Shown here in pieces: positions 1 through 64,000 of a stretch of 64,000 bases of DNA. The DNA lies in the NCBI GenBank assembly GCA_965178125.1, contig OZ237750.1, positions 682,001 through 746,000 of the forward strand. Reading direction: 5' to 3'. The translations under genes and the position numbers were made by a program. Every line of letters starts with the position of its first letter. Position 1 is the first letter of the stretch. The notes beneath the pieces are model-generated. The model did not search any database. It was not told where the DNA came from and saw only the letters and a list, made by a program, of their open reading frames with translations. The DNA comes from Bilabrum cf. latius. Taxonomy: Eukaryota.

Positions 1-2
1 GT

Positions 3-353
3 GTCGGCAGTCCTGCCGATGTGACAAGGTAGCAAGCGGGTCGGTCCGGGTCTGTGGAGGATGGACCATCTTCGTCGTACCTATATATGCCTAACTCGAT
101 CGATGGTATAGACTTTGCAGAATAGCCCGCCGCCCCTCTCCCTAGGGACAGCGCCGTGAAGACAACTAGGTCTGAAGCGCCGCCACGAGCAGCAGCTGGC
201 GGGTCGGGTGCATCAGCTCAAGCCAGCCATGGGCTCACCTTCAGAGACTTGGCCGATCGGGGCTCCGATGGATACGTCGGCAGTCCGTACATGCGTAACC
301 TGTACACATCTGCGATCGAAGGGGCGGGAGACGAGATGGACCCGCCGCCTTGA
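3..353 (+). CDS. 3' end of a hypothetical protein (5'-truncated by window edge)
   Basis: Frame is open from position 3 to TGA at 351-353 if TAG at 30 and 123 are read through. No recognisable domain. Confidence 0.5.
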
Positions 354-652
354 GGCTCGGTGATGAGAGTCAAGGGATGTGATCGAATAGAATAGTATAT
401 TCAGTTTGGCGAATTTCGCTTTAGAGGCACAGTCGGGCCCAAAGGCAGGTGAGCGCGTCACACAAGAAAATCACCCAGTCTCCGCCCCCCTCTCCCGAAC
501 ACAGAAAGGGTATGCGCGTCATCGCAAGCAATCCGTAGGCTCGGTCGCACCTTCCCGGTTGCGACCGCCAGCGGAACCGAACCCCGTACGGCGTTGGGGT
601 TAATAAGGTGTAGCCTCAGCCGCCAGTCGTCCGCACCGTCTTTATCGGGGCC

Positions 653-3325
653 TCATTCGCTGTCATCCCGATCTGAGGACTCACCAGAGCTCTCACTCGA
701 TTCCTGTAAAGCTGCTCGAGTGCGTCGCAGCCTGCCACCTCGAGCAGTCCCGCCCTCCAATGCAGCCGCAGCCTCTCGCTCTGCCGCCAGTCCCAGACCA
801 TCCTCAAGAACCTGCACTGCCACTCGCGCGGCCTCCACGGCCTGCTGATCCTCGGCTCCCACCATTTCCTACCAGCCCAATACCACAGCCACTGCCCGGC
901 CTCCGATGTCCTCGGCATCGTGGTGTGGGAGAGCGGCGAGAGCGTACAGGCCCGCGCATCGGCCAGCAAACGCTGGTCCTTCCATCAGTGTGAGAGTTCC
1001 TTGTGCACCGCCAGGTGCACCAGGTACTGTTCTGTTTGGCTCAGTAACACGATTGCCGTAATCGTGGTCAACGGAAGGTCCCCGGTCCCGTGCCGAGGCA
1101 GTCGCAATGGCGGCAGCAGCTGCACCTGTGGCAGGCAACTCATCTAACGTGCTAGTTGCACCTGTGATCGGCGCAGCATTGCTGCCTTTACTACGCCCCT
1201 GCATGCCGTCGTTTTTATGCACGCGCAACTGTCCCAGCAGGACGCCTTTCATGAGTGACTGTGAACCGTCCGCTTCGGCAACCCGCAGCAGTGCGTCGCC
1301 ATCCGGACCCCAGCGAGCTGTAGCGCTGGCCTGACGCCTGCCTGCAATCGAATCACCCACCAGGTCCGTGCCAGTACTACCACTACCACTACCACTGCTG
1401 CTGAGCGCGGCAGGCTCCGCCGCGCCCATCAGCAGATCGCATCGCACAGCGGATGACGAAGGTCGCAAAAGCCACGGCACGTGCCTCGTTCGCAGCCACG
1501 AAAAGTGACCGAACGCCCACTGCAGGGGAGCATCCAAGGCAGCTTGCAGAGGAACTGCGACCAGCATGGATCCCGCGCAGGTCGCAGCCCACATGGTAAG
1601 CATGTGAAGCGATTGGAGCTGGAAGCTACCTGTGTCCGGCCTGGGAAGCATTCCCTGGTCGTCCTGCTCTGGCATGAGCACTCCCGGCGTTGCGGGCCAG
1701 GGGGGACCCATAAGCTGCAACATTAAGCAAGCTACGAGCGGTGAAGCTATGCAAGCAGCCTGTGAGTGCCTGGCCAGGGCTCGCAGGGTCCCATCGACGG
1801 ACAGGCCATTGCCCGCATCTGTAATATCCTTCCTCCCTGCAGCAGCACCCGCGCCAGTAGCAAATTCCACCCTTGATGAGCAGCCAAAGAGCGTCATGGC
1901 TCTGTGAAATCCCCAACTCCACGCATCGAGTCGCGATAAGTGCGACAGCCGCAAGCCCCTTACCCACTCGGCGCCGCCCACCACCACCCACGCATGCAGC
2001 AGCGCAGCACACGCAGCTACCAATAAAGGCCGCTGCATGGCAATCACCAATCCCATCCAGTAGAATCGCATGCCGCGCTACCTGTCCGCTCCGGTGCCGG
2101 GCGAAGGCGCCAGCATCCCGAGCTCGTGCCAATCCGCCTGCACCAGCAGCACCAAGCAGGGCAAGGCCGCTGCAGCTGCAATGCGACCGAGGACTCCGAG
2201 CCGCACGCCACGAGTGCTCGTGCCTCGGCTCAGGGCGGCCAGACCACCCGCCGCAGCACCGAGGAATGGAGCCCCCCAGGCAGACACGGGCTGCAGTGTG
2301 AACCGAGACAGGACCGGGTTGTCCCCGGCTGCGGCTGCTCGCACGCTCAGCAGCGGCCTGCCTATCGGCAGCGGCCCGGGCAAGAAGACGAGCCTCGCAA
2401 TTGGCCACGCAGCCGCAAGGCAGCAGAATGCCGCGATCACCGCCCACTTTGCTCCGGTACGGCCGCGCCCCACATGGCACGGGGCCATGCGACGATCCCC
2501 GAGCACCTGCTCCGCGCTCGCCTCTCGTTCGTGCGGGACACCAGACCCTGAAGTGCCTCTTCCATCCATACCGCCAGCTGCTGACCCGTCAAGATCTTGC
2601 GCGGGCACGTGCGCGGGCACTACGGCCAAGGGGCCGCAACCCATGCGCCGGAGGCCAGCCCTGCACTGCCGCCCCACGCCAAGCCTCGAGCCAGCCCAGA
2701 TGCATGCGTCGCGCGAGAGCTCGTACAGTGCAGCAGTAGCATCGACAGTTACGGCTCCAAAACGGGCCGTAGCTGCCGCGACGAGCACAAGTGCCGACAC
2801 GCTGAGCAGGCTTGTCCCGGCGAACGCAGCCCACGGGGCGCACTGCCGCTGTACTGGCTTCCACAAGAAACCAAGGGTCAACAGGTCGGTAGCGGCAGCT
2901 AGGGTGGAGCAATTGAGAGGCTACAATTCGCTGCCTTGCGCGAGGACAGGAAACAGGACCGCTGCAAAAGCCCACGCCGCAAGCAGCGCGGGGCCTCTCT
3001 GGAGGAGTTGCCTCGCAAGGACCTTGCCGATCTCTGCCACGCCAACAAGTTCGATGGAAGCCTACTCAGACAAAAGTTTTAATCCGAACATGAAGCTAAG
3101 CAGTGCGACCGACGCATCGCCAGCTAGGTGGCCGGTGCAAAACCACCCGAGCGGCGCATCCACCTGTGACCTGTGCTGCCAAACCAGCGCAGGCGTTTGC
3201 CATCTCAACCAATCCGCTGCAACTACCGAGCAAACACATGCCACCCACCAAAGAAATACCAGGCAAACTGCTGCATCGATACCTGGATCTGCTCGATGAT
3301 TCCGTGGCGTTGGATTTAAATGCAT
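653..3325 (-). CDS. Uncharacterised multipass membrane protein (~890 aa)
   Basis: ORFs 3062-3352, 2078-2881, 869-2071 and 653-865 share one frame. They are separated only by TAG (3062, 2921, 2078, 869). ATG at 3323-3325, TGA at 653-655. Many hydrophobic segments and an acidic Ser-rich tail. Confidence 0.7.
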
Positions 3326-3397
3326 CCCCTGCTTCTCAAAGACCGGTATCAAGGGAGCACGGGCACAGCGAGCCAGTATTGATGAATCAGAATCGCA

Positions 3398-4220: not shown

Positions 4221-7200
4221 TCAGGCAACCAGCCTGGAGCTCGACTCTATCTGGGCCTGAAACGCCCTGGCCCTCTCTGCTGCCCGCTACCGCACCGTCA
4301 CTTCAAGAAGGTCAGCGACTAGAGTGTCTCTGTCGTGCCCGCGGAAGCTGCCGGCGGCCTGCACACCGACCAGCCCACTGTTGGCTTGCCACGCGTGAAG
4401 AGAAGCAGACCTCGCCCCACCCGCAAAGGACGGCGTGTTGCTGGACTCAACGTACTGGCCGAATTCCTGCGACTGCGTGCCGGTCACCTCGGGCTGCAAC
4501 CGGGTGGGCAGTGTCCTGCACCTGAGCCAGCCGTGGACGTCCCTCCTTCTCCTGCCTGCCCCCGATCGCCCGTGCGCCTGCTTCCACTGGCCGCCCGTGC
4601 CACCCTCGCGGGCCCCGCCACTGGCTGGGTGCTGCACTGCCAGTGCCTGGGCCGCGCAGTACGCGACGTAGACCTCCGGCACTCCCCTAAGCTGACCGGC
4701 GCTCACCCTCCCGTCCGCACCGCCAGAGTCAGCACCGGATTCATTTTCGGGCCCGTGCCCGTGTGATAGGCCAGGTGTCTCCCTGCCTGGCCCAAGGGTA
4801 TGCGCGTCATCGTGCGAGACGATGTTCCAGCCAACTAAACTGTCGCCCATCGCGCCACCGCCTTGGAGCGCTGCTCCGCCCGCTCCCACATCACCTCTGG
4901 ACAACCCAGGCTCCTAAACAAGGCTGCCGCTCGACGCATCCGAGTCCTGCTCGACATCGTCGTCCAGCCTGGAAGAGGCCGCGCTCGAACCTGTCGACCT
5001 CGCCCGCAGCCGACGGCTCCACCGGATCCCGTCCTTGCGGATGCCTTTGAGCTCCAGCTTGGACCGATCCCGAGCCTCCACGAACCGAGACTGCAGAGAA
5101 CGGCGCTGCGAGCGGGGCATCGACTTGTCACCAGCCGCATCCAGAAGCTGGTGCAAAGCCAGCGAGGGGAGGAGTGTGGCCACCAAGACGCTCTCTCTGC
5201 GCGTGAGGCCGCTCCTCCTCTCCACTGCATCCAGGAGGGCCTGGCCAGTGGTTGACGAGGCACCGCCCACGAGCACCCACCCTTCCTGCATCTCCTCCGG
5301 AGTAAGCTCGTGACCATTCACCGCCTCCCGCACGCCGTGGGTAGGGTGCCAGAGGCAGGCCCGTGGATTGTTCATCAGCCAAGCAGGTGGCACCGCAGCA
5401 GATGCCCTCGCTGGCACAACGAGCACTCGGCGGGATGGCTGTGCCTGTGCACCGGCCAGCCCTTGCTGCTGGTCGTGCTCAGTCGCACCAGATTCGGACT
5501 TGCCACCTTGCGGCAGCCTGCGGGCCTTTCCCGCCGATGCACCTGCTCGTTGCCCAGCCTTTCCAGCGCTACTGCGACGCCGAGGACTTGCAATTCCTTT
5601 GGCAGCAAACTGCTTCAATGCCTTTGACCAGTGCACTGGCTTTGACAGCGGGTCGATGGGGGGCGGTGCGATTCGCCTTGGGATGTGCACAATGTCCACG
5701 GGTGCAACGAACGGCTAGGTCATTGCCACCGTATCAAAGGCAGTCCTCGCTGACCGCAGCACCACAGGCACCCAGGTTCCGGGAGCGACGGCACCTTCGG
5801 ACACAACGGCACCGCCAGACTGTAGCAGCAGCCCGCGCATCGCAGCCGAGGCCCACGTGAAAGACCAGGGCTACAGCATGGCATCATCACGAGTCGGAAT
5901 CGACGCACAATCGATTTCTTGCAGGCGCAGGGACCGCTCATAGAATGCCTTCACAGGCTCAGACCAGAAGTTCCCCAGGCCGGTGGGTGGCACCCATTGA
6001 GTGGGAATGAGTCGATCGAAGCGAGAGGTGGACTCGGCATCCCCTTGGCGGACACGCCTGCCGCTGCGCGTCAAAGTAGTCGCAAACTCAAGCAGCGCGC
6101 TCCCAAGGGTCCTCTCCCCGGCAGCACGGCTAGCCTGCCCGCCAGACTCGCCGTGATGGGGACTTGCCAGCAAGAGCTCGGCACCAAGCAGCGAGCTGTC
6201 GTTGTTGTGCAAGACCCGGTCCGACGATAGCTCCCACAGGTGCTTGGCACCATTGCCGGGCCGGTACTTCCCAAGGAACACGTTGATGCTGTCTTGCTTG
6301 AAGGCGTCTGTGAACGAGTTGCTGTAGTAGCGCTGGATGGAGGTCAGCACGGAGATCCTGGAGCGAGAGCCCAGCGCCAGCTCCTCTTCTGCACTTGTGG
6401 CCGCCGCCGCAGAATTGCTGTCCTCCTGAATCTGCCGGGCAGTTGTGCTCTCCACCAATTCAAGGGATTCTTTGGCCCCGCTGGAGACCCTGCCTGCCTT
6501 CAGACCCAGCCTATCCCGCCGGGAGATCTTGTGGTGGGCCTCGGATCCACCGTACTGCAGTGCGATTCGATCGCCCATTTCTTCGTACATGATCGCAAGG
6601 TTGAGCGCAACCTCGGTTTGCTGCAGCCGCTCTGCCCACAGTCCCTTTCTGAGCCTGGTTTGCTCTTCGCTTAGATACCCGTCCACCGACCTTGCGGCGG
6701 GGGCGCTGCCTTGCTCAGGAACGGTCGGCCGCTTGCGCTGCGTGCTGCTTGGCCCATAGTCGAGCGCCTTCAGCATCACGGAGAGGGCGTACATGCCCAG
6801 CTGCTCCTGTCCGCTGTTGGTCCTATCCAGGCAGTCCACGCAGTTTGTTCGAGTGACGCCGCACTGCCGCAGCCCCCACCACCGCTGGTATGCACCAGTG
6901 GTTGATGCCGCCGCGGCCGCAGCATCTCTAGCCATGCTATCATTCATCGCGTAGCCATCTGTTCCTGGCGCTGTCGGCTCGCCGGGCCACTCCGCAGCCA
7001 CAGAGAGCTCAACTGCTTTGGTCGTGGGACGGACCTCGAAGCCCCTCAGCTTGTTTGCGACATTCTGCACGACCCTCGAGTCCATCCGGCGGATGGCTTC
7101 AAGATGCAGCAGCCTATGCCTCTGGAGATATCCGGCTGCTGGAGGCGCGTAGACAGGCCGAGGGATCCACGGGACCCTTGCCCTGCCGACTAGATCCACG

Positions 7201-10200
7201 AACAGGTATCCAGGGAGCACCTCTTTCCGAATAAGCTGGCTGATTTCCGCCTAGCGTACCACCACTGAGCTGCAAGAGGCCCCCGCAGTCTCCCACGCTT
7301 GCATGCGATCTGCGAAGACTCTCTGAGCCCTGGCGCTCGGCACGACCATGGCGCGCCCCTGCTCCTCGGCACCCATCGCTGCAGTGGCGTCGAACCCAGC
7401 TTCTGCATCGCGCAGACCCGTGGCGATCACGTACTTGCCTTCTGCTGCGATCGCATGGGCCGATTCCGGTCGAATAATCGAAGCGTGCCTCTTCTTGGAT
7501 ACCTGCCTGTGCCGGAACTGCGACCGGGCCGACTCTTCCATGGCGCGAGCTGCAAAGTCCTTGGGCATCAGGGCCTTCAGCGGGCGAGAGCTGTTCCCTT
7601 CGATAGAAGGTTCGGCCTCCTGGCTGATGTTTGATGGCAAGCGCTGTACGACAAGCGCGCTTGCACCTTCGGAGACACCCGGCGAGGAAGACTCGGACCG
7701 GGCGCTGTCCGCAGACGGCAGCATGAGAGAGCCTTGCGCCGCCAGCTTGGTGTCTGATACGGGCGAGGTCGAGCGTGAGGACAGCTTCATGGCAGAGGCA
7801 TCGAACGCAAACTCATGCGGACCTCTTGATCCCGCGCCGTGGTGCAAAGAGTCTGGCGTGTCAGTGTCGCCCCTGTCACGTGGAGTCGTGGATCTTCCTT
7901 CGCGGGGAGGCACCTCGCCCTCGCCATCCGCAGACTGCCCAAGCAGCATCCGCAGTGCGGCCGACGACGACAGCTGTTGCTTCCGAATGCCTCTCATCGA
8001 TGATTTGTGCCTGCCGGATCCATGCGATCGTCGTCCGTTCGACAGATGCGCCGGAGAAGGGATGGGCTGGAACGGCGACGCCTACCCTCCTGCTCGATCG
8101 AGTTGCCCAAGATGCAGCTGAGGCACCTTACGTCGCATCGGACTCACAGAGCGCACGGCAGCGGCAACTTGCCCGTGCTCAAAAGCAGGCGGCAGGCGAG
8201 GTGCAAACTTGTCGTCCCAGTCCACCAGACGCAGGCCCTCGGGGCGGGGGTTCTTGAGCGACGACGCGTGGGCGGCATCGATCGCTGCTTGACGGGCTGC
8301 TCTCACTGCGGTACGAGCCCCCCGGCTAGAGTTGGCTCCAAATCGCACGCTACCGCCTCGCTAACGCCTCTTCGTGTCGTATGCCTGCAGCCTGCCGCCG
8401 CCATACAGCATGGCCGAGCCACCGTGAGCCGGGTCAAGAGGCCCCTGCGATCCACTGGTGCCGGCACCGCATCGCTGCCACGCCACAGAGGGTGCGGCTA
8501 GTGCGCCACCAAAGTGCCCCCTGCTGCCAGTTGCCGAGCTTCCCGAGCGAGCTCGTGCTGCCGAGCTGGACGGAACGACCATTGGGTTCTCGTCAAGGTG
8601 CCTCGCGAACACCTGCGTCTCTGGAGTCTTGTCGTCTCGCTCAAGAATCAAGGACAGGTTCTGGCGCCAGTTATGGGCCAGTGGATTCAGCTCCCGCTGC
8701 TTCTGTCCGGTGACCCTAGACTCTGAAGGCAGCGTAGCTGGGTCGGTCTGGTGAGGAGCGGCATCTGGCGGGAAGCCTAGCGCCATGGCGAGCTGCGATC
8801 CAGAAGGTGGCTGAGACTTTCGCTGCTGCCTCCGACTGCCATGCAAGCAGTTGAGGGGGGACAGTCCTGGAATGGGTCCTTCCCTCGATGCAGCACGAGA
8901 CACTGCTTCCCCCCAACGCTCGAGGCGAGAGCTGGCCACACCCACCTCGGTGCTGTTTGAAGCCGATGCTGCTGCGCTAGCACTGTCGCCGCCTGCGCCA
9001 CCGTCATTGGGCTGGTCAGCTCCTTCCCTCGGCAGTCGGACCGGCATCTTTCCCTGCTTCGCGACAAAGCATCCAGTGTTGACCAGGCTCCAGCGAGCTG
9101 CGTCATGCAGCGCATCCACGACGTTTCCGCCTTCCGACTTCTGCAACCGATCGAAGTCCAGGGCAGCAAACTGCACCCGAAAGGCGGCCGGCAGGGATGC
9201 ATTCAGCTCGCGCACAACCGTTGCAAACTTGGACCCGATGCGTACCTCTCGCGGAGACGACTCCTTCTTCTTGAGCAGGTTCAAGACGCACACAGGGGCG
9301 CCGTACCGCTCCATGAGGTGAGCGAAGTGGCGCCTGGTCGCTACGATGTCGGAGGGTCCGCTGTCTAGCTCAATCTTCGGCTTCGCGGTCGCAAATGATG
9401 TTTTTTGCGACCAGGAGACGGGCACGGACCCGCGGACTTGAACGAACGAAGCCATCTGGCCCGCGCCGTCCTCGAGGATCTGCTCCACCTCCACGTCGTT
9501 CGCAACGAAACCGAAGGAGGAAATGCCGCGCTTGAGGTACCTAGTCCCGGCGAATTCAGTCAATCGTCTGCCCAGCAGGGTGAGCCTCGCCAGCTTGCCC
9601 ATGACTCGAAAGATCCTCTGGTCCAGGTATCCGTAAACCACAGGCGTGATCCATGAAGAATGCACAATCTGGCTCATCTCCTCAGCAAGGTAGGAATTCC
9701 ACATGTGTTCGGCCCTTGGGCGGCGTCGAAGCGGAGATGCAGTCGTGGGAGCGGAGGTGGCACGCTCTGGAGCTTCAGGCTCAGGTGTGGCAGCACACTG
9801 GCTGCCACTGGCTCGCGGCAGTTCGGTGCCACTTGGCGCGCTGCATGCCACCACGTGTTCACGATTTCCATGTCGTCGGAAGGTTTGGACGGTCTGCTCC
9901 TGCAGCGTGCGGGTGAGATCATACGTCGGCGAGAAATATGACTCGTTCTCGAGCTGCACCGCCTCGAAGAGCAGCCTGTACCGGTCCTCGGCCACAGCGC
10001 CGGGGTCCGGCTGGAACCACTCGGACATTCTCTGCAGCATTGGCTTTGCTGGCTCCACTGTGAGCGGCAGCATGGACACCTTGCTGATCGAATGCAGCTC
10101 GTGGGAGCCAATGGTACCTACAGTGACGCTTTCCTCCACGAAGACAATCGTGTAGGACTGAAGCAACTTGATGCACCCTAGGATGCACACCGCATTGGCC

Positions 10201-10985
10201 TTGAAAAGACCACCTGTCATTGCTGGCGAGCTTCTCGCGGACGACCCGCCCGATTTGCCACCAGATCCACCGCCGGAAGCGCCCTCCTTGCGTTCCTCGT
10301 CGCCACGTCCCGCCACGCCATACCTCCTCTCCATGTCTCGCATCAGGGCCTGGGCCCGGGAGTGCGACACGAGCGACCCGTCCTCCTCCAGGATCTTAGA
10401 CAGCCGCTCCGGCCGCTGCAGCGTGCGGTCCACGCGGATGATCCGGTAGTAAGGGTCGACAGAGTCGGGAGGGGACGGGCCCGGGCCACTGGAAGCTTGA
10501 GGCTTCTTCAGGGGCTCGTGGCTGTGGCTCTCAGCCGCGGATTTCGCGAGCGGCACAGCACGCCTAGCAGCAGCGTGCTGCCCCGGGTCTACGGATCGGG
10601 ATCTCGTTTCGCGGAACAGGCGCGCGTCTTCCAGCCTCTGTTTCTTCACGTCTGGGTCGCCCTGTGGACACTTCCCGATGAGGTACACTGTCTGCGACAT
10701 CATAAAGGTCCTCCAAACAACAGGCTGACGCATGCTATGGCACGAATAGTTTGGGATCATTTGCAAATGCATCTTCGTTCTCACCGTTGCAGATGCCATG
10801 ATGGTGATCTCAGTCATGCAGGCGAGACGTGCAGGAATGCTCGTGGCAGCGCATGCGAAATCGTCTCGAAGTCCAGATGAGCTTGCGGTTGATGCTGGAA
10901 GTCTTGCCGGGGGAATCGCCGATAAGTGACGCCAGGTAGCTTCGAGGTTCCTCCGTCGCCGACTCGAGCCGAAGTGGGAGGCCAT
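4221..10985 (-). CDS. FIG4: FIG4/Sac3-like polyphosphoinositide 5-phosphatase (SAC domain), ~2200 aa
   Basis: SAC motifs YFSPTYDLTRTLQ, FAGTRYLKRG, VANDVEVEQI, SFVQVRGSVP, catalytic RTNCVDCLDRTN, IALQYGGSEAH and SIQRYYSNSFTDAFKQDSINVFLG. Six ORF pieces lie in one frame, joined across TAG at 8361, 8082, 7251, 5871, 5715, 4914 and 4287. Probable in-frame 93-nt intron at 10692-10784. Both ends are uncertain. Confidence 0.88.
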
Positions 10986-11542
10986 TGCAGCCCTCGTGCC
11001 TCGGCTCCACAGGGCCTCCTGGAAAGAGAAGGTCGCAACACGGATCGCACGCAACCAATGTAACAGATTAATAGGGTCATCACACGAAAGAAAACGCCAC
11101 TACTTGTCCGGGCACTTGATGCGAATACACAGCATACCGAAAGCCTGCACTGGGACGGCTGAGGCTCCCTGCAGATGAGCATACACTATTGATCGAGGCG
11201 CAAACCCTACAGGAACGGGTGTTGAACTGCTGTACGCTTCCTACTCCGCACCGGGGGAGGCATACTCTAGAAGCCTCTGCGATTTAGGGTCCAATACGAA
11301 CCACCTCTCCTCGGTCCGGAACTAGGAAACCGCTGTCAGAAAACCAGCTGCACCGCGGAAATCCGCGGGACAGTCTCTAGCAGTGGGGGATTCCATCAGC
11401 TCATGCTAAATAAGTTCGGCATGTCTGGCGATAAGAGCGATTGAAACGCAGTTGCTGCACAGCTCCCAATTGTAGCGTGAGGTTTTGTCGGAATCGACGG
11501 CTCGCTTATTTGGGCTGCCAGTGCACTTGCTCGTGCTCTGTA

Positions 11543-13874: not shown

Positions 13875-14049
13875 GGGACTCGGTCGCAAATGTGCATGCA
13901 GTTTCTCTTAAATGACCGCATTGTTTATTCTATCATCCAGCTTGGAGCAGTGAGCGGCGCATTGACCATGGCAGTGGAAGTCGTGGTTCGGCTGCTATTC
14001 GGAGTCCGAATCAGATTCTCCTCTCTTCAGCCCATCATTGGTTCCAGCA

Positions 14050-54200: not shown

Positions 54201-55097
54201 TCGGACCGCCCGATGCTTCGGGGATTCTCACATGAGCACCGTCTCAGGGTCGCCACTCTTGTTTGGAGCGCTGATCACGGCAGGTTGGCACCAGAATAGT
54301 GTATCCGTAAGTATATTGGCCATGACGAACAGATTATTCGTTCTCATGCTTGCACATACCGGATAATTAGTAGAAGTCCGCGGCGAAGAAGGTATGGATC
54401 GGATCGTCTGGTTCTCGCGTACGAGGCTGCGTTCTTCGGGTTGTTCCAATCGAGTCGGATTGCCCTCTGCCATGAGCTAGGATCCATTGAGGATGTTATA
54501 GAGTGGCTCAAGTCTATGTTCCTTCGCATTGAAAGAATCGCTGCAGCTGCTGACGCTAGCGCGTGCTCTGGGAAGTTTAGGCCCGGTTCTTCGTCCTTGG
54601 AGCATGGCAGATCAGGCCCCAGCCTGGGCTCGCATGCCACCAAGCAGCGTTCACTGTGTTTGGTGGGTAGCGTTGCTTCTGAAAGTTTGCAAGGATCGTC
54701 TTGTTCGAGACCAGAGTAGTGCTTGGAAGGGGCAGTCAATCGCGACATCAGCCTGCTGAGTGGATACATTATCATGACCCTGTTGGTTCTTGGGTGCAAA
54801 CCCGCCAAGATCGAGGCTTGGCTGGAGCAGAACGCTGAATGTTTCTCGCCACGCTTAACGTAGCGCGATCATGCCCTGGACGTGCAGGCTTACCCGATGG
54901 CTGTGCAGGCATCAGCCGGTGCTGCGGCTGCGGCCGGTGATCAGGGGTAGCATATATCCGTCGACGCAGGCAGCCTGACAGGCCCATCTGCTTTTGTGCT
55001 ATCGGATGCAGCTATTGGTATCGACGAAGCGGTCATTGAAAAGATGACAAAGCAACATCTGGAAGCCAGAGTGCAACTGAAGGGTGGACTGCTCTGA
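51227..55097 (+). CDS. F-box-like, multipass transmembrane protein (~1261 aa)
   Basis: Exon 51227-51263, intron 51264-51348 (GTGAG..GCAG), then a 3749-nt frame with no TAA or TGA until 55095. 14 TAG in total. The spliced N-terminus IEEMPSRCLKCVSGFLDIASIVHLSVVNKSM is F-box-like. Several hydrophobic helices at 52750-54050. Confidence 0.75.
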
Positions 55098-55163: not shown

Positions 55164-58100
55164 TCAGTGCACTGGCATTAGGCCCTGTCTGTCCGACATC
55201 CCCTACATGGGGTTGTGGACTGCCAAAGTACCCGCTGATCCGCTCGTCAAGTTTGCGACAGGGGCGGAAGCACCCGGCGTCGATCCCTGGATAGGGGCTG
55301 ACTTCTATGCTGCGCCAGCGTGTGGCCCAGCATGAAATAGCATTTGCATCATCCATAGAAAACAGAAGGCCACAGCCCACACGCCCGCCGCTGCCGCCGT
55401 CACGCCTACCCACCCTCCGCGAGGAATGCCGGCCTTGTCGGATGCCAGGCCTGCGCCGAGCACCACCGCCACCAGGCCAAGCACGCATGCCGCGTAGCCG
55501 AGCCCCTTGTGCGCCCACTCCCAAGCCTCCCTCCAGTCGTCTCCCTTGTGCGGTCGCACGGCCCCCAGCACCCCCTGGCACAGCGCCATCAGCACCACCA
55601 CGAGCCCAATCACAGAGTGCCCGCTCGTGAAGTGCTCACCGGAGCCCACGTGAGCGAGGATCACCGCGAAGCCAATCAGGGTCAGCACAACGGCGAGGCC
55701 CTGTGCCACCTGGTGGGTGCGGAACCAGCACGGAACCGACGCTGGCGCGGCGTGTGCTGCTTGATCGTCGGGCTGCGTATTGCCACGCTGCGCGGAAGGT
55801 GGAGAGACAACACACTGCTTGCAGAACCGGGCAGCCAGGATTCCAGTGGGCACCAACACGGCCCAAGCCAGGCCCATCATCACGCCGTGCGCCACGATCA
55901 GCCCTGCCAATGCCACAGCCTCCACCGCACCTGTGCTCAGGTCCACACTCACCACGGAGCGGCCGGCCAGGCTGTGCGCCCCGCTCGACTCGATGCTGTC
56001 GGCCGACCCGTGCCTGGCCACCAGCATGAACAGCTCCCCTTCAGATCCGCCCGCGGGCAGCACGTGGTCGCCCGAGTCGCCCGTATCCAGGGCCCGCGTG
56101 AACTCCATCACCCAGCTGCCGTTCCGCTCGTACAGCCTCGTATTACTCACGCTGCGCTCCGCATCCCGCCGGATCCCAGACCCGAAGCCAGACCTCGCCG
56201 TCAGGTCGTACTCTCGCACTGCCTCCTCGCTCGATGCCGCCCCGAGCGTGGCCACCACGGAATGGGCCCCCGGCATGGCGGCATCGCTGGGGTTGAAGCC
56301 CAGGGCGAACCAACCTGACGATCGGTCGTGCACAAGCCGGGCGTGCAGGTACTGCCCGGTGGGGTCACTGCCCGACCCAGACACAACGGCAGAACCGCCG
56401 CCGGGCACCTCACTGTCGGTCAGGCTCCACATCATCTGCAGGCCGTCCAGCAGCTCTTGCTGGGAGGCGAACGAGCTGTCTGCCATGTCGGCGAACCCAG
56501 TGCGAGGGGCCTCGGGCAGCACAAAGCCCAACACGTTCAGGCTGCCTGCCGCGACGCTCGACGTCAGCGTGCCCTGGGACTGCAGGGGGCTGCTCGCGTT
56601 GTTGACTTGAGCGCTCAGATCGACCACCAGGTCGTTGTAGCTCGCAGCGGTGTCGTTGGTGCCTGGCTAGATGCTGAAGCGCACCACCACGCTGCCGCGC
56701 TCCACAGACTCCACCAGCACGCGAGACGCCTCGATGCCCAGAGCCCCCGACACATCGGCGGCGAATTGCATCTCAAAGGCATCCGGGTCCGACTCGTAGT
56801 CCTGGTCGAAGTCAACGGCTAGTCGCAGCCCGAGCACCACGCGAGACACTGCACCAGGCCCCTTGGCACCAGGATCAGCCCCCTGAGGGGGCAGTCGGCA
56901 CCGCCCGCTTGCGGCATCCAGGGCGAACCCAGCCGCGCACTCGCTACAGCTGGAGCCGGCGTGGCCTGGGTCGCACACGCACTGCAAGCCCCCGCTGGCA
57001 GACTGCACCACGTCGCACCTGCCCCGCCCAGAGCACACCACGGTATTGTCGCAGACCACAGCCGGCCGAAGCACCACGCTGCCGGTCCCACGCGACGTGT
57101 GGTATCCGATGGCATCACCAGAGCTGCCGCCTTGCGCATCCATGCGTCCCATGGCCCAGATGAAGCCGGTGCTGGCTTGTTCCTCTGCAGACCACGCACC
57201 ATCGATAGCACTCCCCGCAATGGCACCCTCGGCATCCCCCAGCGGTCGGCGCACGACCACCACGGCCCTGGCGCCATCCTCGAGCGCCTGCGATCCCACG
57301 GGAGGAGAGCCCGCGAAGGCAGAATCACCGGCCTCGAACAGATTGCCAGAGGCCTCGCTCGACAGCACGGCGGTCTTGCCACCGCTCGTGCTCACCATGT
57401 CGAACGGGAGCACCCGCGGCGGGTTCTGCCCCAGCAGCCCCACCACGGCCCGGCCGGTGCCCCCACCCAGCATCAGTCCGCTGGACGACTGGGCCAGCCC
57501 CACCCACTCCGTGTCCGCGGGGGCCGCTTGCTGCAGCTCCAGCGACATGCGCACGTGCGTGGGCTGCTCGGTGCTGGTGCCGGCCACGAACTCGCTGCCC
57601 TGGGCATCCTCCAGCCTCCACCTGAGCTTCATGACCGGGTCGCTGGTGTCGCTCCCGATGGGCACCACATTGTCAGCGGGGAACTGCACCGCGCTGCCCT
57701 GTGGCAGGTTGGACGGCGTAGGGCTGGTGCTGGTGCTGGGCGAGGCCGAACTGGACGCAGAGGGGGAGGCCGTCACGCTGGCCGAGGCAGAGGGGCTGGA
57801 CGAGGCCGAGACGGACGTGCTCGGGCTGGGGCTCGGAGACGGTGAAATGGAGCTGCTGCTCGTCACACTCGGGCTCGCTGAGATTGATGGTGCCACAGAT
57901 GGCGTAGGCGACGAAGTGCCGCTTGGGGTTGTGGATGCTGTGGCGCTTGGGGTTGGGGTTGGTGACATGCTCGCCGATACGCTAGGGGTGACCGAGACGC
58001 TCGCAGTCGTGCTCGGGGTCGGCGTAGCAGTTGCGGTAGTTGAAGAGGAGGCCCCCAGTGTCACCGAAGAAGTCTGCGATATAAAGCAGGTATTGGTGGG

Positions 58101-59802
58101 GACGAGTATATCACCAATGCTGGTGCTCGATGCTAGCCTCTCTCAGGTGTGGACACACTGTAAGCACTTTGACCAGACTCACTGGAGTTGCACTCGTTGT
58201 TGCAGTGGTCGAGGCAGTCTGCGAGACAGTCATACTATATGAAATATATGGAGAATAGCGCTGTTTGTGTCGAGTGATTGCCTAGCGAATTATGTCCTGG
58301 TGGGGAAGCGAGCGCGAGAGCTAAGCCGCTGGCCTTACCGGAGATTCCGTTGGAGTGGGTGTCGTCGAGCTGGTGGGGGATGCAGTTGAGGTACTTGTCA
58401 TAGACGGAGTCTGCGCGGGGAAATTGTCATAAACGGAAGCTTATGTGTGGTCAATCTGGTCAGGCTGTGCCGAAGCAACGATCATCGCGGGTGACTCACT
58501 GGGGTAGCAGTTGTTGTGCCCGTGGTTGACGGCGTCTGCGCGGGAAGATGAATGACCGCGCGCACGTGCAAACGGTTTGAGTCAAGATCAAATAAAAAAT
58601 GAATGACAAACATGACTATAGTCATGTGTCTCACCGGCGAAGCGGACGGCGAGCTAGTTGTGGACGGAGTTGACGTCGCGGTCGTGGTGCTTGTGGTCGA
58701 AGACGTCGGGGTCGCAGTAGCGGTCGCGGACGATGTGGGAGTTGCAGACGGCGTCGAGGTGGTCGATGGAGAGGGCGATGAGGATGGCATGGGCACTGCC
58801 ACGGTGAGTGCCTGGGAGCGCTTGGCCACGAAATGCCCGCTGCCGTCGCGTACCACGAAGCTCGACTTGAGGTTGACTGACAGCACGTCGCTCGAAGACC
58901 GCTGTCCTGTCGTGGCCGTCAATAGCAGCCACGTGGCATTTGTTGCACCTTGTCGCACCTGCACGATCTGACTCAGGGTGGCCGTGCCACCAGAGATGCT
59001 CGCCTCGAAGTCGGCTGGTTGCAGACCGGCACCAGTGCCTCGTCCGACTGGGCCCGAGAATGTGACCAGGAACTCGCCCCCGTCGTGACTGCCCGCACTC
59101 GCAACACTCTGCAAGGTCACAGAGGAAACGGTGATGTCCTCGTCAAATGTGGTTTCTACCGTGTGGAACCGAGCTCCAGTGTACACCACGTGGGCACGAA
59201 ACGTCACCCGACCAGTCCCGGGGGAGGGCGGATCCCACTCGAATGATCCTTGGCTGTGGGTACCCTTTGCTCTATGGGTTACGCCGTTGCAGCCCTGAGA
59301 GGTACGACTGCGAGAATGAATACAGGGCAAGCGATGAAATCTTGTCACTTCTATCCGACTGCGAGCTGTTCATCGCAAAAAGCTGTGTCCTGGCATCAAC
59401 TTACAAGGAACTACCACTGGGAACATCTAATTCACCGATACTAGACGAACTTGTCGTCGTTGACGAAGGCGTATCCCCAACTTTGAACCCATACATATAC
59501 AATCCGCTAAACGTGCCGGAGGAGCCTGTTCGCACTACGCAGATGTACGACGTATCGCCTGCTGCGCTGTCATACCCGCTTGTCAGTTCTGTGGTACAGC
59601 TAGAATCAGCATACAGCTTGAGCTAAAATGTCGGGGATGTGGATAGGATGCTATGTGTGGGGAATCCAGGAGTCCCATTGCATTCCGTGCCGCCATCAAA
59701 CCCGCTTATGTAAGCATTTGACTCGATAGCAAGCAGCAGTGCTTGCACAAAAATATACTATAATAAATGATTTCTTGCTCGAAAGTCGCAAAACCCCAGC
59801 AT
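55164..59802 (-). CDS. Reeler-mucin-DOMON-cytochrome b561 protein, copy 2 (1362 aa)
   Basis: Exons 59405-59802, 58635-59307, 58500-58535, 58339-58410 and 55164-58073 sum to 4089 nt, in frame. First intron is at the same position and phase as in copy 1. TAG at 59758, 59623, 56667, 55305 and 55203. TGA at 55164. Confidence 0.82.
55368..57838. repeat. Large inverted repeat, arm 2
   Basis: Reverse complement of about 41702-44359, minus a divergent loop-coding segment. Confidence 0.9.
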
Positions 59803-60486: not shown

Positions 60487-60513
60487 GTACCTAATTCTAT
60501 GCCGCACCCCTCT

Positions 60514-61257
60514 TTAGAGTGCACCCAAGCTTGATCTTACTCTCTTGATGCGTTGCTAGCCGCCATGGATTGCTCGACACGGTGCTGACGGTGGAGGGTC
60601 CTTCCGACCCTATGTGCCCCGACCCCAACGACATACCATGCCCGAGCAGTACCTAGACTATGCAGTCTCCGAGGAGGCCTCCCTGGCGCTGCTGCCGGGG
60701 TTCGACCTCGATCTGCTACTGTCACCGCTGTGACCCTTTGCCATACCGTTTCCTGTACTTGACGACAGCCCGCCTCGCCTCATAGCCACCAGGCTGAAGA
60801 TCACCGGAGCCGCCAGGCCCGTGGAGATCAGGGCGATGGCAAGAGTAGACATACCGTTGTAAGTGTCCTCGGATTGAGGACAAGGACGCAAGCCAATCTC
60901 AGAGAGCTTGGAATTCACTGATGAGATTTCCGTTTCAACCGTATCAGGTCGCGAGAATTCAACTGACTGTACCACCCTCACCATGACTTGGTACAGCTGG
61001 ACCCCCTATTGAGAAGAGTTCAGGGCTACGGTGAAGTCGATACTGATGCCAGGCGAGCTGCTATTCCAACTGGTGGCCTCCGAGCTGCAGTTCGTTGGTA
61101 CACTCAAGAACATCGCACTGGTTGTTAGCTCGCCGGGTGGGTTGGCCAGCTCAAGCATCTGGTCCGCGATGCCAATGGCAACAGTGCAGTCAAGAGTAGT
61201 GCCATTACGAAGATTCAGACGGGCTACAAACACCAGCTGGGTTGGAGGTGCGTCCAG
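60514..61257 (-). CDS. Coding exon of a single-pass membrane protein (start unresolved)
   Basis: ORFs 61006-61233 and 60658-60984 share a frame across TAG 61006. TM segment LAIALISTGLAAPVIFSLVAM followed by RR. No in-frame ATG upstream of 61233, so it probably splices to an upstream exon. Confidence 0.5.
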
Positions 61258-61322
61258 CTACGGATGCCCATTGCAAGTCTCGCGCCGTGGTCAGGGTACA
61301 CGCCGTCCTTGACAACGGACCG

Positions 61323-64000
61323 TTAAACGGAGTCTATAATATCCGGCCGAAGCCTATGCTTTGCCTTCACCAGTGCAGCCTCAAGCATCTGGAGCAGGTA
61401 ATTCACTGCCCCGGCCCTTGACCCGCGCTGCTCTTCTGTAGGACCGTTATCACGGTACAGCGACGACCAAGTCCCCTGCCTTCCGAGCGGAGGGATGTCG
61501 ATGAATTCGCTCGTCGAAGGCATGACGTTGTGCGAACTGTGACGATGGGTGTCCTAGCCATATGGCCCACTCGCCCGACCGCTTCCCCTAGAAACAGCGC
61601 GGGCCGCGCCAGACTAGGCCGCTGCCCCGCCAGCGCTGACCGTGTTACTGGGCATGGTTGAACCCACCACATCAGAGGCCACAGTCCTAGGCGAGTCAAT
61701 CTCACTCAATAGCTGTGGAAAATCCTCCATGCCCCCCATGGCCTTTCCTTGCCGCCTCCAACGAGTTTTGACTGCTTCAGCCAACTCCCGCATCCGTCGG
61801 GCCGCAGAACCGAACCGAAACCGAGCGAATTCTCGAGCGAGGCAATCCATGACTCTGTGCTGACGACCCAAGACCCCCTATTCGCCTATTGCTGCCGAAG
61901 TAGCGGGCTGAAGTGGATCAGACACGGCTGAGGCTCGCGCTTGGGCTCCGTCGGTGCCTCCCAGCCGGGCATGACTCTCACCTGCCGATGCCTCAGTCTA
62001 TCGCTGATTCATGCCAGCATGGAGAGCCCTCGATATATCTTCTGGGTTCAAAAACACCAGCAGGCTATCCTACTCCCCGAGGCCAGCCGTAGCACCCGCG
62101 GCGTGCAGGAGCGCGACTTTGTTCAGGCGGCCGGACAGCAAAGATGACTGTGCAATGGCGGTGGCCTCGTCAAGCGTTCCGCAGCAGGGAATCCATGAAA
62201 CGAGCCCGGAGACGGCGGGTGCAAACACTAGATCGTACATCAGCATCGCAAGAAGCATCAGCGGTGCGGTGAAGAGGAACGAGAAACCCTACGATATCCA
62301 GAACGTCCACATGACCGAGGAGATCACATCAGGACCATTTCTTGCTCCGAAATCGACAACAATGAAAAGGGCGCCAGCCGCAACCGTAGCGAGCACAAAT
62401 AACGTGCAGCCGGCAAAATAACTGAAATGCAAACAGCTTTTCTCCTATCCTTGCAGTGTCCCCAAGACGGCGGCATGCATGGCCTTGTCCTCAAAGATCT
62501 CTTCTAGAATCTCGTCCACCTCATCGACACTAGGAGCACCGGCTTCAGTGGCCCTGCGAATGCGTGTTGATCGCACTGCTTGGCTTGCTGAGCTGTCACT
62601 AGATGAATAAGCCGGGGGGGAGCCCGCTTCAGACTGGGCCTCGCTCTCAGACCTTGACCGGATCTCGGGGGCGAGTGCTGCCTCCAATTGCAGCCGGGGC
62701 ATATTACATACTGCCGCATACTACTGCGTGGATAGTGAACCGAGCCCCGCGCCGCTAACAGCTTTACCCTGGTCTTGGCCTGTCGCTGTGCCGCCACCAA
62801 CAGGCGTCTCGCCGGAGGTGCGAGGGAGAGAAGCATCGGTGGTTTCATAGCTGCCGGCATTGCCAAGGTGCTTACCCTCAGTAGCCCCCCCCGACGGGTC
62901 ACAGGTCTACCCGTCGGGGGGGGTAGATGTAGCCGGCGCTGCTGCCCCGGAGCTGCTTGGTGCGTCCATTCCTTTGCCAGATTCTGGGGTCGATTTGGAG
63001 TCCCCGGTTTCGGGGCTTGCAGGATCAGATCCTGACCCTGACTTGGCAATTGCGCCACCCTCAGTGGAACTTGTATCGTGGGCTGTCATGCTGCCGCCAC
63101 GTGCTGAACCTTTTCCGAGGTCAGGAAAACTCGCCCTGGTAACTCTGTCACCATCATCGCCATCGCCTGGCACACCTTCGTGGCTTCTATCAGACCCAAA
63201 CACATCAGCAGCAGGAGCCCTGGGACTCTCGATTGCAATGTCTTCTACGGCCGCGATGAGCCCGTCCTCGTCTGAGCTAGATGCAGAACCAGCGGCTGAG
63301 TTGTCGCGACCAGGTTGCCTCGCGCCAAGCCTACTTTTGTTCGGGAATCGATTAGCCAGTTTTGGTGTTGAATGTTCCCAGTCACTTAGTTTAGTCTTTG
63401 TCCTCCGTGCACTTCTTCCAGAGCGGCCAAATGCAGCCTACGGGTCTTCATCTTCGCTGCTTTGGGCGGAAGGCAGCATTATTCCACTTTCTTGCCAAGG
63501 GCCGGACATCCCAGCAGCTCCTCTAGTCACTTGTACCTCAGTAAGCTCCGAGTCAGGATCATCGCCGAGCTCCTCCTGTTCTCTGGCGAGATCCCTGGTG
63601 CCAAGCAGTTCGGGCTGCCTGATGGCGCACACGCACCTCAAGTCGTCCATGAGGCCCCAATCCCAGCAGTCACAAAGCAAGCACGATTCATGCCCCTAGA
63701 CTGCGTCTCTAGCAGGCACACGCGGTGCAATTGGTCTGTCATGTAGCACACTTCGAGGGGCTGGAGCTGGCCCAACTCTGCCAGAACCATGTTCCGAGTG
63801 CAATGGGACTTCATGGCTACTACTGCTCACACCCGTACCTGCAGGACCCAAATTATCAGTACAGGCCTGCATTCGAATAGAAGCAGCTCGAGTATCGCGT
63901 CGAATGTGACAGCATCCGTAAGGCCGTCCGTGCGCAGCAAACTGTTGCATCAAAAACAGATTGCGCTGACTTGGGAGCCGGTTACAGCAGCAAACCAGGC
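61323..64000 (-). CDS. 3' part of a large membrane protein (possibly polycystin-like TM region), 5'-truncated
   Basis: Frame is open from the window end to TAA 61323 with 11 TAG (63696, 63438, 62907, 62721, 62445, 62289, 62070, 61998, 61878, 61614, 61554). TM helices at about 62170-62430. The family call is weak. Confidence 0.7.

What the first reader, a model, noticed from the sequence alone, without database searches (positions are those of the whole stretch)
1..64000. Non-standard nuclear genetic code: UAG is a sense codon across the whole window
Seen: about 16 unrelated genes on both strands are broken into same-frame pieces, and every internal break not explained by an intron is TAG (about 90 counted). 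There are no frameshifts and no internal TAA or TGA. Examples: 15 TAG in a 13-kb dynein frame, 13 in a 3.7-kb exon at 51349-55097, and 7 each in FIG4, the RBR ligase and the ART gene. Conserved catalytic motifs downstream of the TAGs are intact. Known: reassignment of UAG alone is rare in nuclear genomes (reported to Gln in Iotanema and some ciliates, and to Leu in a rhizarian and some ciliates). Inference: this GC-rich flagellate looks unlike those lineages, so it may be an independent and possibly undescribed code change.
Basis: partly seen in the sequence, partly recalled or inferred. Interest (0 to 1): 0.97.

Follow-up and report, generated by a model that had tools for sequence, protein, structure and literature searches.

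The report
UAG read as glutamine in stramenopile
This stretch of nuclear DNA comes from a relative of the marine flagellate Cafeteria that reads the stop codon UAG as the amino acid glutamine, a rare change to the genetic code that does not seem to have been reported for this large branch of life.

Summary
With TAG read as sense, TAA/TGA-free frames of 4412, 2443, 1255, 1207, 1185 and 1183 codons appear. Reading TAA or TGA as sense instead gives nothing above 933. Sixteen frames (18,289 codons) hold 97 in-frame TAG and end in TGA (13) or TAA (3). All 15 TAGs of an intact axonemal dynein heavy chain stand unchanged in a DNA run and in an RNA-bearing run from another study. Homologue columns opposite the dynein TAGs favour Gln: log-odds +9.3, next best Lys at -5.8. 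Close environmental relatives have the same genes cut into fragments. Of 7 resolved breaks, 3 fall on window TAG codons, 3 on CAG and 1 on GAG. The dynein is sister to Cafeteria roenbergensis. This is the known code variant UAG=Gln with UAA/UGA as stops (NCBI table 15). Ten literature searches found no report of it in a stramenopile. The tRNA-Gln(CUA) and eRF1 could not be examined, because no whole genome was held.

The parts
25516..38580 (+). Axonemal (inner-arm, DNAH6-like) dynein heavy chain. It is intronless and runs from the first Met (residue 59 of the 25342-38580 frame) to TGA. There are 15 in-frame TAGs, at 25702, 25900, 26725, 27670, 27715, 28420, 29023, 30952, 31750, 32035, 33418, 34219, 37021, 37642 and 37978.
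   Evidence: PDB hits have E=0. The frame ends at the conserved C-terminus with TGA. DNA run X4 and RNA-bearing run X5 cover all 15 TAGs with 0 differences.
4221..11552 (-). The frame ends in TGA.
   Evidence: Syja_N, E=2.8e-62; CX5R(T) motif at residue 1571, downstream of 7 TAGs.
12075..13874 (+). Kelch/EGF-repeat protein with 1 in-frame TAG. Ends in TGA.
13966..16326 (+). Ends in TGA.
   Evidence: (Plus-3, E=3e-5, below Pfam's cut-off).
16501..20052 (-). Long low-complexity frame with no known family and 10 in-frame TAGs. Ends in TAA.
21485..25042 (-). Long frame with no known family and 7 in-frame TAGs. Ends in TAA.
39484..40281 (+). Last exon of a fatty-acid/sphingolipid-type desaturase, with an in-frame TAG at 39625. 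Ends in TGA.
   Evidence: FA_desaturase, E=5.5e-20; spliced contigs of X5 and X7 cover it with 0 other letters.
38973..39099 (+). GT..AG intron (127 nt), removed in contigs of runs X5 and X7. A second intron lies at 39364-39493 (130 nt) and a third at 40822-40908 (87 nt).
   Evidence: table 5. These joints are absent from DNA run X4.
40901..44524 (+). Reeler-DOMON-cytochrome b561 protein, copy 1, with 3 in-frame TAGs. The one at 42872 is shared with copy 2.
44654..47629 (-). RBR (RING-between-RING) E3 ligase with 7 in-frame TAGs, 4 of them in the C-terminal RBR part. Ends in TGA.
   Evidence: (IBR, E=2e-16).
49304..51044 (+). Adenylosuccinate synthetase in several exons. There is no TAG inside the Pfam-matched coding part. 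The C-terminal exon ends in TGA at 51042-51044.
   Evidence: (E=1.7e-134).
51330..55097 (+). Multi-pass membrane protein with no known family and 13 in-frame TAGs. Ends in TGA.
55164..58142 (-). DOMON-cytochrome b561 protein, copy 2 (99.3% identical to copy 1 over 2021 nt), with 3 in-frame TAGs.
61323..63998 (-). Frame with no known family that runs off the window and has 11 in-frame TAGs. Ends in TAA.
653..3397 (-). Frame with no known family and 4 in-frame TAGs. Ends in TGA.

Best explanation
The window is nuclear DNA of a GC-rich (about 60%), flagellated, Cafeteria-related stramenopile whose cytosolic translation reads UAG as glutamine. UGA is the main terminator, and UAA is also kept as a stop. 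This is the code of NCBI table 15.

Shown here:
- UAG is a sense codon in many unrelated genes.
- UAG is present in the mature mRNA.
- Glutamine is the best-fitting amino acid.
- UAA and UGA never occur in frame.
- At least one close environmental relative has the same genes broken at stops that coincide with the window's TAG or CAG codons.

Inferred, not shown: decoding by a tRNA-Gln with anticodon CUA, which pairs with UAG but not UAA, most simply derived from tRNA-Gln(CUG) by one anticodon change; and an eRF1 that has lost recognition of UAG while keeping UAA and UGA. The change arose after the split from the Cafeteria roenbergensis line, whose orthologue is a full-length standard-code gene model.
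For: (1) Frames. Only TAG-as-sense opens frames of 4412, 2443, 1255 aa and so on. The TAA and TGA controls stay at 933 aa. There are 97 TAG, 0 TAA and 0 TGA in 18,289 in-frame codons. P(4412 codons without TAA/TGA) is about exp(-97).

(2) The genes are real. The dynein heavy chain matches solved axonemal dyneins at E=0 over its length. SacI, IBR, DOMON/cytochrome b561, Kelch/EGF and desaturase domains are found by Pfam. Catalytic motifs lie downstream of TAGs.

(3) Not an error, edit or intron. Of the four runs laid, DNA run X4 and run X5 (another study) cover 15 of 15 dynein TAGs with 0 other letters. X7 (a third study) covers 10 of 15. X5 and X7 contain RNA: their contigs skip three GT..AG introns (127, 130 and 87 nt) that X4 keeps. 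One spliced contig carries the desaturase TAG at 39625. X5's dynein contig ends 64 nt after the TGA, where the DNA contig runs on.

(4) The amino acid. Among 120 homologues, the columns opposite TAG show Q in 99 of 113, 95 of 120, 56 of 120 and 45 of 120. Summed log-odds over the 12 of 15 usable columns: Q +9.27, K -5.78, S -8.16, A -8.88, T -9.67, E -9.89; Leu is below -15.4. The method called the right residue in 198-200 of 200 resamplings of known positions. Q is the commonest residue in 4 of 12 TAG columns, against 82 of 190 for genuine CAG/CAA positions.

(5) Relatives. The dynein tail has only 4 short hits among 8000 candidates (78-96% identity, contigs of 5-16 kb). They tile residues 285-400, 407-627, 652-1026 and 1035-1227. 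They end just before window codons CAG, GAG, TAG and TAG, and the relative has Q at window TAG 777. The 13-TAG protein has only 4 hits, all fragments listed with the same longest-contig length of 4979 nt (taken as one contig). Two of them end just before window CAG codons, and the relative has Q at window TAG 632. Two RBR relatives both end exactly before window TAG X268. In total 6 of 7 resolved breaks fall on TAG, CAG or CAA codons, which make up 4.6% of codons (P=6e-8). Three of 7 fall on TAG (P=5e-6).

(6) Terminators. The dynein, RBR, desaturase and adenylosuccinate-synthetase genes, whose C-termini are fixed by homology, all end in TGA. If TAA were used like TAG, about 28 in-frame TAA would be expected; 0 are seen.

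(7) TAG looks like an ordinary codon. The base after sense TAG (G32, C29, A18, T15) mirrors the base after CAG (G184, C183, A105, T78).

(8) Lineage. The window's dynein is sister to Cafeteria roenbergensis plus one metagenome protein: FastTree support 100 and IQ-TREE LG+C20 SH-aLRT 98.
Against: - Not every column says Gln. Dynein column 4213 has L in 64 of 111 homologues (Q in 4), column 2232 has L/M/A/I, and column 3894 has P in 45 of 120.
- In close relatives, the 11 window TAG positions that are covered by a residue read Q, Q, L, L, K, K, E, E, S, T and C. Only 2 of 11 are Q. Nine of the 11 are single-base neighbours of TAG, as expected at fast-evolving sites, but this does not by itself prove Gln.
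- The codons at the relatives' breaks were never seen, because the DNA could not be fetched. That they are TAG is inferred. One break lies on GAG, and two further fragment ends (P0127, P0129) could not be placed.
- No tRNA gene lies in the window and no genome is held. The decoding tRNA and eRF1 are therefore untested.
- The read evidence is from assembled contigs, not raw reads, and contigs drop rare variants. In one search, 61 further difference rows were not shown.
- TAA as a true terminator rests on its absence in frame and on 3 frames of unknown proteins ending in TAA. No homology-fixed C-terminus ends in TAA.
- The placement rests on one gene, with a single named taxon in the nearest clade.
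Confidence: 0.9

Rival explanations
1. UAG is a sense codon but encodes another amino acid (Leu, Lys or Glu), or is decoded ambiguously by more than one tRNA.
For: Dynein column 4213 prefers Leu (64 of 111) and column 2232 prefers L/M. Close relatives carry L, L, K, K, E and E at six window TAG positions. UAG=Leu exists in a rhizarian and some ciliates, and UAG=Glu in one ciliate (passages of PMC11687900).
Against: Four deeply conserved Gln columns (Q in 99/113, 95/120, 56/120 and 45/120) would all have to be replaced. Summed log-odds are Q +9.27 against K -5.78 and E -9.89, with Leu below -15.4; calibration gave 198-200 of 200 correct. Three of the relatives' breaks lie on window CAG codons, and none lies on a Leu or Lys codon.
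Confidence: 0.04
2. [quoted passage not shown] It is Gln inside genes but also terminates some genes, as in codes without a dedicated stop.
For: This cannot be excluded from 64 kb. Only four C-termini are fixed by homology. Several frames have a TAG within about 20-50 codons of their end, for example residue 2422 of the 2443-aa SacI frame. Such a TAG could be the true stop.
Against: All 4 homology-fixed C-termini end in TGA. The base after in-frame TAG shows no special context compared with CAG. In-frame TAG density equals the off-frame density.
Confidence: 0.05
3. The TAGs are not translated. They would be assembly or sequencing errors, RNA-edited sites, unrecognised introns, or the genes would be decaying pseudogenes.
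For: None was found. In principle, contigs can hide rare variants.
Against: The TAGs are identical in runs of three studies, two of them RNA-bearing, with no joint that removes them. Decay would also produce TAA, TGA and frameshifts; there are 0 in 18,289 codons. Domains and motifs downstream of the TAGs are intact. The relatives share break positions.
Confidence: 0.01

Closest known systems
UAG-only reassignment to Gln (NCBI table 15) in Iotanema spirale (Fornicata), Protocruzia tuzeti, Hartmannula sinica and Trochilia petrani (ciliates)
   Same: UAG is read as Gln while UAA stays a stop. The inference uses the same kind of evidence, in-frame UAG at conserved Gln positions (passages of PMC11687900; PMC5304391).
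   Different: The supergroup differs: a stramenopile, sister to Cafeteria. The genome is GC-rich (about 60%). TGA is the terminator in 4 of 4 verified genes, whereas UAA is described as the primary terminator in Iotanema and accounts for 93.5-100% of C-terminal alignments in the two phyllopharyngeans. The tRNA and eRF1 were not examined here.
UAR (UAA+UAG) = Gln, NCBI table 6 (many ciliates, Hexamita, Ulvophyceae, Streblomastix, Amoeboaphelidium)
   Same: A stop codon is captured for glutamine, presumably through a mutated tRNA-Gln (passages).
   Different: Here TAA is never in frame: 0 in 18,289 codons, against about 28 expected if it were used like TAG. Reading TAA as Gln extends only one ORF of 500 aa or more (527 to 533 aa) and merges none.
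UAG = Leu in the rhizarian exLh and some phyllopharyngean ciliates; UAG = Ser in Scotinosphaera
   Same: UAG is uncoupled from UAA in a nuclear code.
   Different: The amino acid differs. Leu and Ser score far below Gln in the dynein columns.
Cafeteria roenbergensis (nearest named relative)
   Same: It is a heterotrophic stramenopile flagellate. Its dynein orthologue is 63-67% identical and sister in the trees.
   Different: Its orthologue is a 4208-aa NCBI gene model made under the standard code, so it is not interrupted by UAG. The recoding therefore post-dates the split.

Membership tests
NCBI translation table 15 type code (UAG=Gln; UAA and UGA stops) | In-frame UAG inside conserved, expressed protein-coding genes | tested here: met
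   There are 97 in-frame TAG in 16 frames. The dynein has 15, and all of them are present in DNA contigs and in contigs of an RNA-bearing run.
NCBI translation table 15 type code (UAG=Gln; UAA and UGA stops) | UAG positions align with glutamine in homologues | tested here: met
   Log-odds are Q +9.27 against a next best of -5.78 over 12 columns. The relative has Q at window TAGs 777 and 632, and the relatives' breaks lie on 3 CAG codons. Not all columns are Q; see the Against line.
NCBI translation table 15 type code (UAG=Gln; UAA and UGA stops) | UAA is not a sense codon | tested here: met
   There are 0 in-frame TAA in 18,289 codons, against about 28 expected. The TAA=Q control merges no frames. 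This covers the window only, not the whole genome.
NCBI translation table 15 type code (UAG=Gln; UAA and UGA stops) | UGA terminates genes | tested here: met
   All 4 homology-fixed C-termini end in TGA, and 13 of 16 frames end in TGA.
NCBI translation table 15 type code (UAG=Gln; UAA and UGA stops) | A tRNA-Gln with anticodon CUA is encoded in the genome | not testable with these tools
   There are 0 tRNA genes in the window and no genome is held.
NCBI translation table 15 type code (UAG=Gln; UAA and UGA stops) | eRF1 is altered in its stop-codon-recognition motifs (GTS, NIKS, YxCxxxF) | not testable with these tools
   eRF1 is not in the window and no genome is held. The motifs are named in PMC5304391.
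Table 6 type code (UAA and UAG = Gln) | UAA also occurs in frame | tested here: not met
UAG = Leu codes (rhizarian exLh type) | UAG aligns with conserved leucine | tested here: not met
   Only 1 of 12 usable columns prefers Leu. The summed Leu score is below -15.4, against +9.27 for Gln.
Ambiguous stop/sense codes (Condylostoma / karyorelict type) | The same codon also terminates genes, depending on context | tested here: inconclusive
   None of the 4 verified C-termini uses TAG. Four genes are too few to decide.
Stramenopiles, Cafeteria-related (bicosoecid-like) lineage | Orthologues branch with Cafeteria to the exclusion of oomycetes, ochrophytes and labyrinthulomycetes | tested here: met
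   Dynein trees give support of 100 (FastTree, 31 rows, 3861 columns) and SH-aLRT 98 (IQ-TREE, 20 rows, 1851 columns). This is one gene only, with no 18S. Membership of Bicosoecida proper was not tested.

The most novel reading that the evidence does not exclude
This is the first nuclear stop-codon reassignment in Stramenopiles. A clade of at least two Cafeteria-related, free-living, GC-rich flagellates reads UAG as glutamine while terminating almost always at UGA. It would be an independent origin of the uncoupling of UAG from UAA, in a lineage whose close relatives are easy to culture. The shared TAG positions between the window organism and its environmental relative would mean the change is old and fixed in that clade.
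Probability: 0.6. Interest if true: 0.85.

Novelty: new member of a known kind. Interest (0 to 1): 0.8.

Why it matters
Nuclear code changes are few. Changes that separate UAG from UAA are fewer still: the passages read in PMC11687900 list about a handful of lineages. They bear on how one eukaryotic release factor can lose a single stop codon. A further independent case has three uses.

- It lies in a different supergroup, in a GC-rich genome that terminates at UGA. This tests ideas that tie stop-codon capture to AT-rich genomes and to the rarity of the captured codon.
- It gives a natural eRF1 variant and a tRNA-Gln(CUA) to compare with those of Iotanema and the ciliates.
- It has a practical side. 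Standard-code gene callers shatter this organism's genes: the dynein becomes pieces of 933 aa or less, and its relatives sit in the big protein databases only as fragments. Any annotation, orthology or phylogenomic use of this assembly and its relatives needs table 15.

Tried and rejected
- Whole genome: none is held. No genome-wide code inference, tRNA scan or eRF1 search was possible.
- tRNA and Rfam scans of the window found nothing.
- Paralogue comparison: the two DOMON-cytochrome b561 copies are 99.3% identical. They have 14 codon differences, none of which involves TAG, so the comparison says nothing about the amino acid.
- A PDB search with the desaturase exon gave only chance hits (E of 0.2 or more). 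NCBIfam found nothing useful for five proteins. The desaturase TAG column therefore stays unscored.
- The RBR ligase had only 1 hit among 322 candidates in the near-length search. PDB relatives (ARIH1) show R, W and E opposite three TAGs in poorly conserved positions, which is not informative.
- The look-up of sequencing runs: no listed holder is on record as RNA. The RNA nature of X5 and X7 is inferred from their spliced contigs.
- Parts of the stretch without cover in X7 and X8 were not interpreted.
- Considered and rejected: pyrrolysine at UAG (the conserved columns are Gln, and Pyl is not known from eukaryotes; the latter is recalled) and programmed readthrough under a standard code (15 sites in one gene, and 97 in 16 frames).
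- Supplementary files of papers were not opened. The eRF1 alignment of PMC5304391 (its Additional file 6) could bear on which eRF1 changes to look for.


Full report
**What is in the window.** The 64-kb window is 56-64% G+C throughout. Under the standard code its longest stop-to-stop ORF is 933 aa. If TAG alone is read as sense, frames of 4412, 2443, 1255, 1207, 1185, 1183, 1127, 992, 991, 914 and 891 codons appear on both strands. The two controls do not do this: with TGA or TAA read as sense, the longest frame stays at 933 aa.

In 16 long frames (18,289 codons) there are 97 in-frame TAG. By construction there is no TAA or TGA in frame. Thirteen frames end in TGA and three in TAA. Off-frame TAA+TGA density is 0.022 per codon, so a 4412-codon frame free of both has probability about exp(-97). 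TAG is about as common in frame (5.3 per 1000 codons) as out of frame (6.1-6.2), whereas TAA and TGA are excluded from the coding frame.

The figure of 97 is an upper bound, because stop-to-stop frames include some UTR and intron sequence. The three TAGs of the adenylosuccinate-synthetase frame, for instance, lie outside its Pfam-matched coding part. For the SacI gene I count 11 in the full frame, 7 of them after residue 1000.

**The genes are real and intact.**
- The 25342-38580 frame is an axonemal dynein heavy chain. It matches solved inner-arm dyneins (DNAH6 type) at E=0 and ends with TGA at the conserved C-terminus.
- Pfam finds a SacI phosphatase, a Kelch/EGF protein, a weak Plus-3 match, an IBR/RBR ligase, adenylosuccinate synthetase, a fatty-acid-type desaturase and two DOMON-cytochrome b561 proteins.
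- Catalytic motifs lie downstream of many TAGs: the dynein Walker A motifs at residues 1623, 1904 and 2338, and the SacI CX5R(T) motif at residue 1571. The motif definitions are recalled, not from a call.

**The TAGs are in DNA and in mRNA.**
- Of 20 listed runs, 17 hold the stretch or a part of it, and 8 hold half or more of its sampled words. Organism names are coded.
- I laid four runs from four studies on 25342-45341.
- Run X4 gives continuous, unspliced contigs. X5 and X7 give contigs that skip three GT..AG introns (38973-39099, 39364-39493 and 40822-40908), so they contain RNA.
- X4 and X5 cover all 15 dynein TAGs in pieces with 0 other letters. X7 covers 10 of 15.
- None of the 19 listed difference rows in the dynein span touches a TAG codon. 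A further 61 rows were not shown.
- A spliced X5 contig carries the desaturase TAG at 39625.
- X5's dynein contig stops 64 nt after the TGA, where the DNA contig goes on.
- No joint removes a TAG. Errors, editing and hidden introns are therefore excluded as far as contigs can show.

**Which amino acid.** The dynein was translated with X at each TAG and compared with the 120 best of 1727 homologues.
- Opposite the TAGs, the well-conserved columns read Q in 99 of 113, 95 of 120, 56 of 120 and 45 of 120. One column prefers L (64 of 111, with Q in 4), one prefers L/M, one prefers P, and the rest are variable.
- Summing log-odds over the 12 columns with at least 20 homologues gives Q +9.27, K -5.78, S -8.16, A -8.88, T -9.67 and E -9.89. 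Leu is below -15.4.
- The same procedure on random sets of 13 known positions called the true residue in 198-200 of 200 trials.
- Q is the commonest residue in 4 of 12 TAG columns, in line with 82 of 190 for genuine CAG/CAA glutamines.
- TAG makes up at most 97 of 834 glutamine codons (CAG 571, CAA 166).
- The base following TAG has the same distribution as after CAG.

**Relatives appear to share the change.** Three searches for close relatives returned only fragments.
- The dynein's fast-evolving tail has 4 hits among 8000 candidates (78-96% identity, contigs of 5-16 kb). They tile residues 285-400, 407-627, 652-1026 and 1035-1227. They end just before window codons CAG, GAG, TAG (residue 1027) and TAG (residue 1228, the column where 99 of 113 homologues have Gln). 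The relative has Q at window TAG 777, T at 462 and S at 792.
- The 13-TAG membrane protein has exactly 4 hits in 1.84 billion representatives. All are fragments of 118-329 aa listed with the same longest-contig length of 4979 nt, which I take to be one contig. Two end just before window CAG codons, and two ends could not be placed. At window TAGs the relative has Q, L, L, K and C.
- Two RBR relatives on different contigs both end exactly before window TAG X268. That would cut off the last zinc ligands of RING2 (the role of these residues is recalled). They have E, E and K at three other TAGs.
- Six of 7 resolved breaks therefore fall on TAG, CAG or CAA codons, which are 4.6% of codons (P=6e-8). 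Three of 7 fall on TAG (P=5e-6).
- The caveat is that I never saw the relatives' DNA.
- Of the 11 relative residues at window TAGs, only 2 are Q. Nine are single-base neighbours of TAG (Q, L, K, E, S), which fits turnover at unconstrained sites but does not itself fix the meaning.

**Terminators.** The four genes whose C-termini are fixed by homology (dynein, RBR, desaturase and adenylosuccinate synthetase) all end in TGA. TAA never occurs in frame, although about 28 would be expected if it were used like TAG in the CAA:CAG ratio. Reading TAA as Gln merges no frames. So UAA remains a stop, or at least is not a sense codon, and UGA is the main terminator. Whether UAG also terminates some genes cannot be decided from four C-termini.

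**Who it is.**
- The best named dynein hit is Cafeteria roenbergensis (63% identity by BLAST, 67% over aligned columns), followed by oomycetes at about 56%.
- In a FastTree tree (31 rows, 3861 columns) and in an IQ-TREE LG+C20 tree (20 rows, 1851 columns), the window is sister to Cafeteria plus one metagenome protein (support 100 and 98). It sits inside a clade of unnamed metagenome sequences, apart from oomycetes, ochrophytes and Hondaea.
- For both trees I chose rows by hand from the 120 listed: all clearly named ones, the nearest metagenome hits and some EukProt rows.
- This is one gene with one named neighbour, so 'Cafeteria-related stramenopile' is as far as it goes.
- Cafeteria's orthologue and the nearest metagenome proteins are full-length (about 4000-4370 aa) gene models, so they do not carry in-frame stops. 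The recoding is younger than that split.

**Mechanism.** Shown: UAG is translated, most probably as Gln. Inferred from established knowledge, as set out in PMC5304391 (passages read):
- Only a tRNA with anticodon CUA can read UAG while ignoring UAA.
- A tRNA-Gln(CUA) is one anticodon change away from tRNA-Gln(CUG).
- eRF1 must lose affinity for UAG. In Iotanema a T32G change in the GTS motif was proposed.

None of this could be tested here: there is no tRNA in the window and no genome is held.

**Comparison with what is known, and novelty.**
- The passages read in PMC11687900 list UAG-only to Gln in Iotanema spirale, Protocruzia tuzeti, Hartmannula sinica and Trochilia petrani. They list UAG to Leu in a rhizarian and in ciliates, and UAG to Ser in Scotinosphaera. 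No stramenopile is listed.
- Ten full-text searches found no report of a nuclear UAG reassignment in a stramenopile. They combined UAG, genetic code, stop codon and table 15 with stramenopile, bicosoecid, Bigyra and Opalozoa.
- Passages checked in PMC11412368, PMC10767852 and PMC8345874 were irrelevant.
- The library lacks most subscription journals, and I opened no supplements, so prior description cannot be excluded.
- The kind of code is known (table 15). The lineage, the GC-rich setting and the near-exclusive use of UGA as terminator are new. I rate it a new member of a known kind, with high interest for people who study code evolution and for anyone annotating this assembly.

**Verdict.** Confidence that UAG is a sense codon is about 0.97. 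Confidence that UAG is Gln with UAA and UGA as stops is about 0.9. Confidence that this is an undescribed, independent origin in stramenopiles is about 0.6.

Noticed in passing
41702-44358 (+) and 55369-57839 (-): There is an inverted, near-identical duplication of a Reeler-DOMON-cytochrome b561 gene (99.3% over 2021 nt and 99.2% over 384 nt). The copies have 14 codon differences, 9 of them synonymous, and share an in-frame TAG at 42872. They differ by an unmatched stretch, 43723-43974 in copy 1 against 55753-55818 in copy 2.
   Followed up: partly
4221-11552 (-): In the SacI-domain protein the phosphatase domain appears to be split. Pfam Syja_N covers residues 456-802, but the catalytic CX5R(T) motif is at residue 1571. 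That implies an insertion of about 750 aa of low-complexity sequence inside the domain.
   Followed up: no
25342-25402 (+): In the RNA-bearing run X5, the first dynein contig begins at 25402 with 59 letters that do not lie on the window. This could be an upstream 5' exon or a leader sequence. The contig ends at 38644, 64 nt after the stop.
   Followed up: no
38973-39099, 39364-39493, 40822-40908 (+): Three short GT..AG introns of 87-130 nt are confirmed by spliced contigs. One X5 contig runs from the desaturase's last exon across the third intron into the start of the DOMON gene's frame, so the two transcripts overlap or are read through.
   Followed up: no
51330-55097 (+): This is a 1255-codon multi-pass membrane protein with the highest TAG density in the window (13) and lower G+C (0.56). 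It has no Pfam or NCBIfam family. Its only relatives in 1.84 billion representatives are fragments from one close relative.
   Followed up: partly
window 28600-38580 (runs): Runs of four studies that hold all or most of the stretch (word share 0.56-1.00) carry four different coded organism names (A-D). In one of them (X8) the depth is only about 2-3. The names may be synonyms, or this flagellate may travel as a minor member of other organisms' cultures. I did not pursue this, in keeping with the rule against tracing samples.
   Followed up: no
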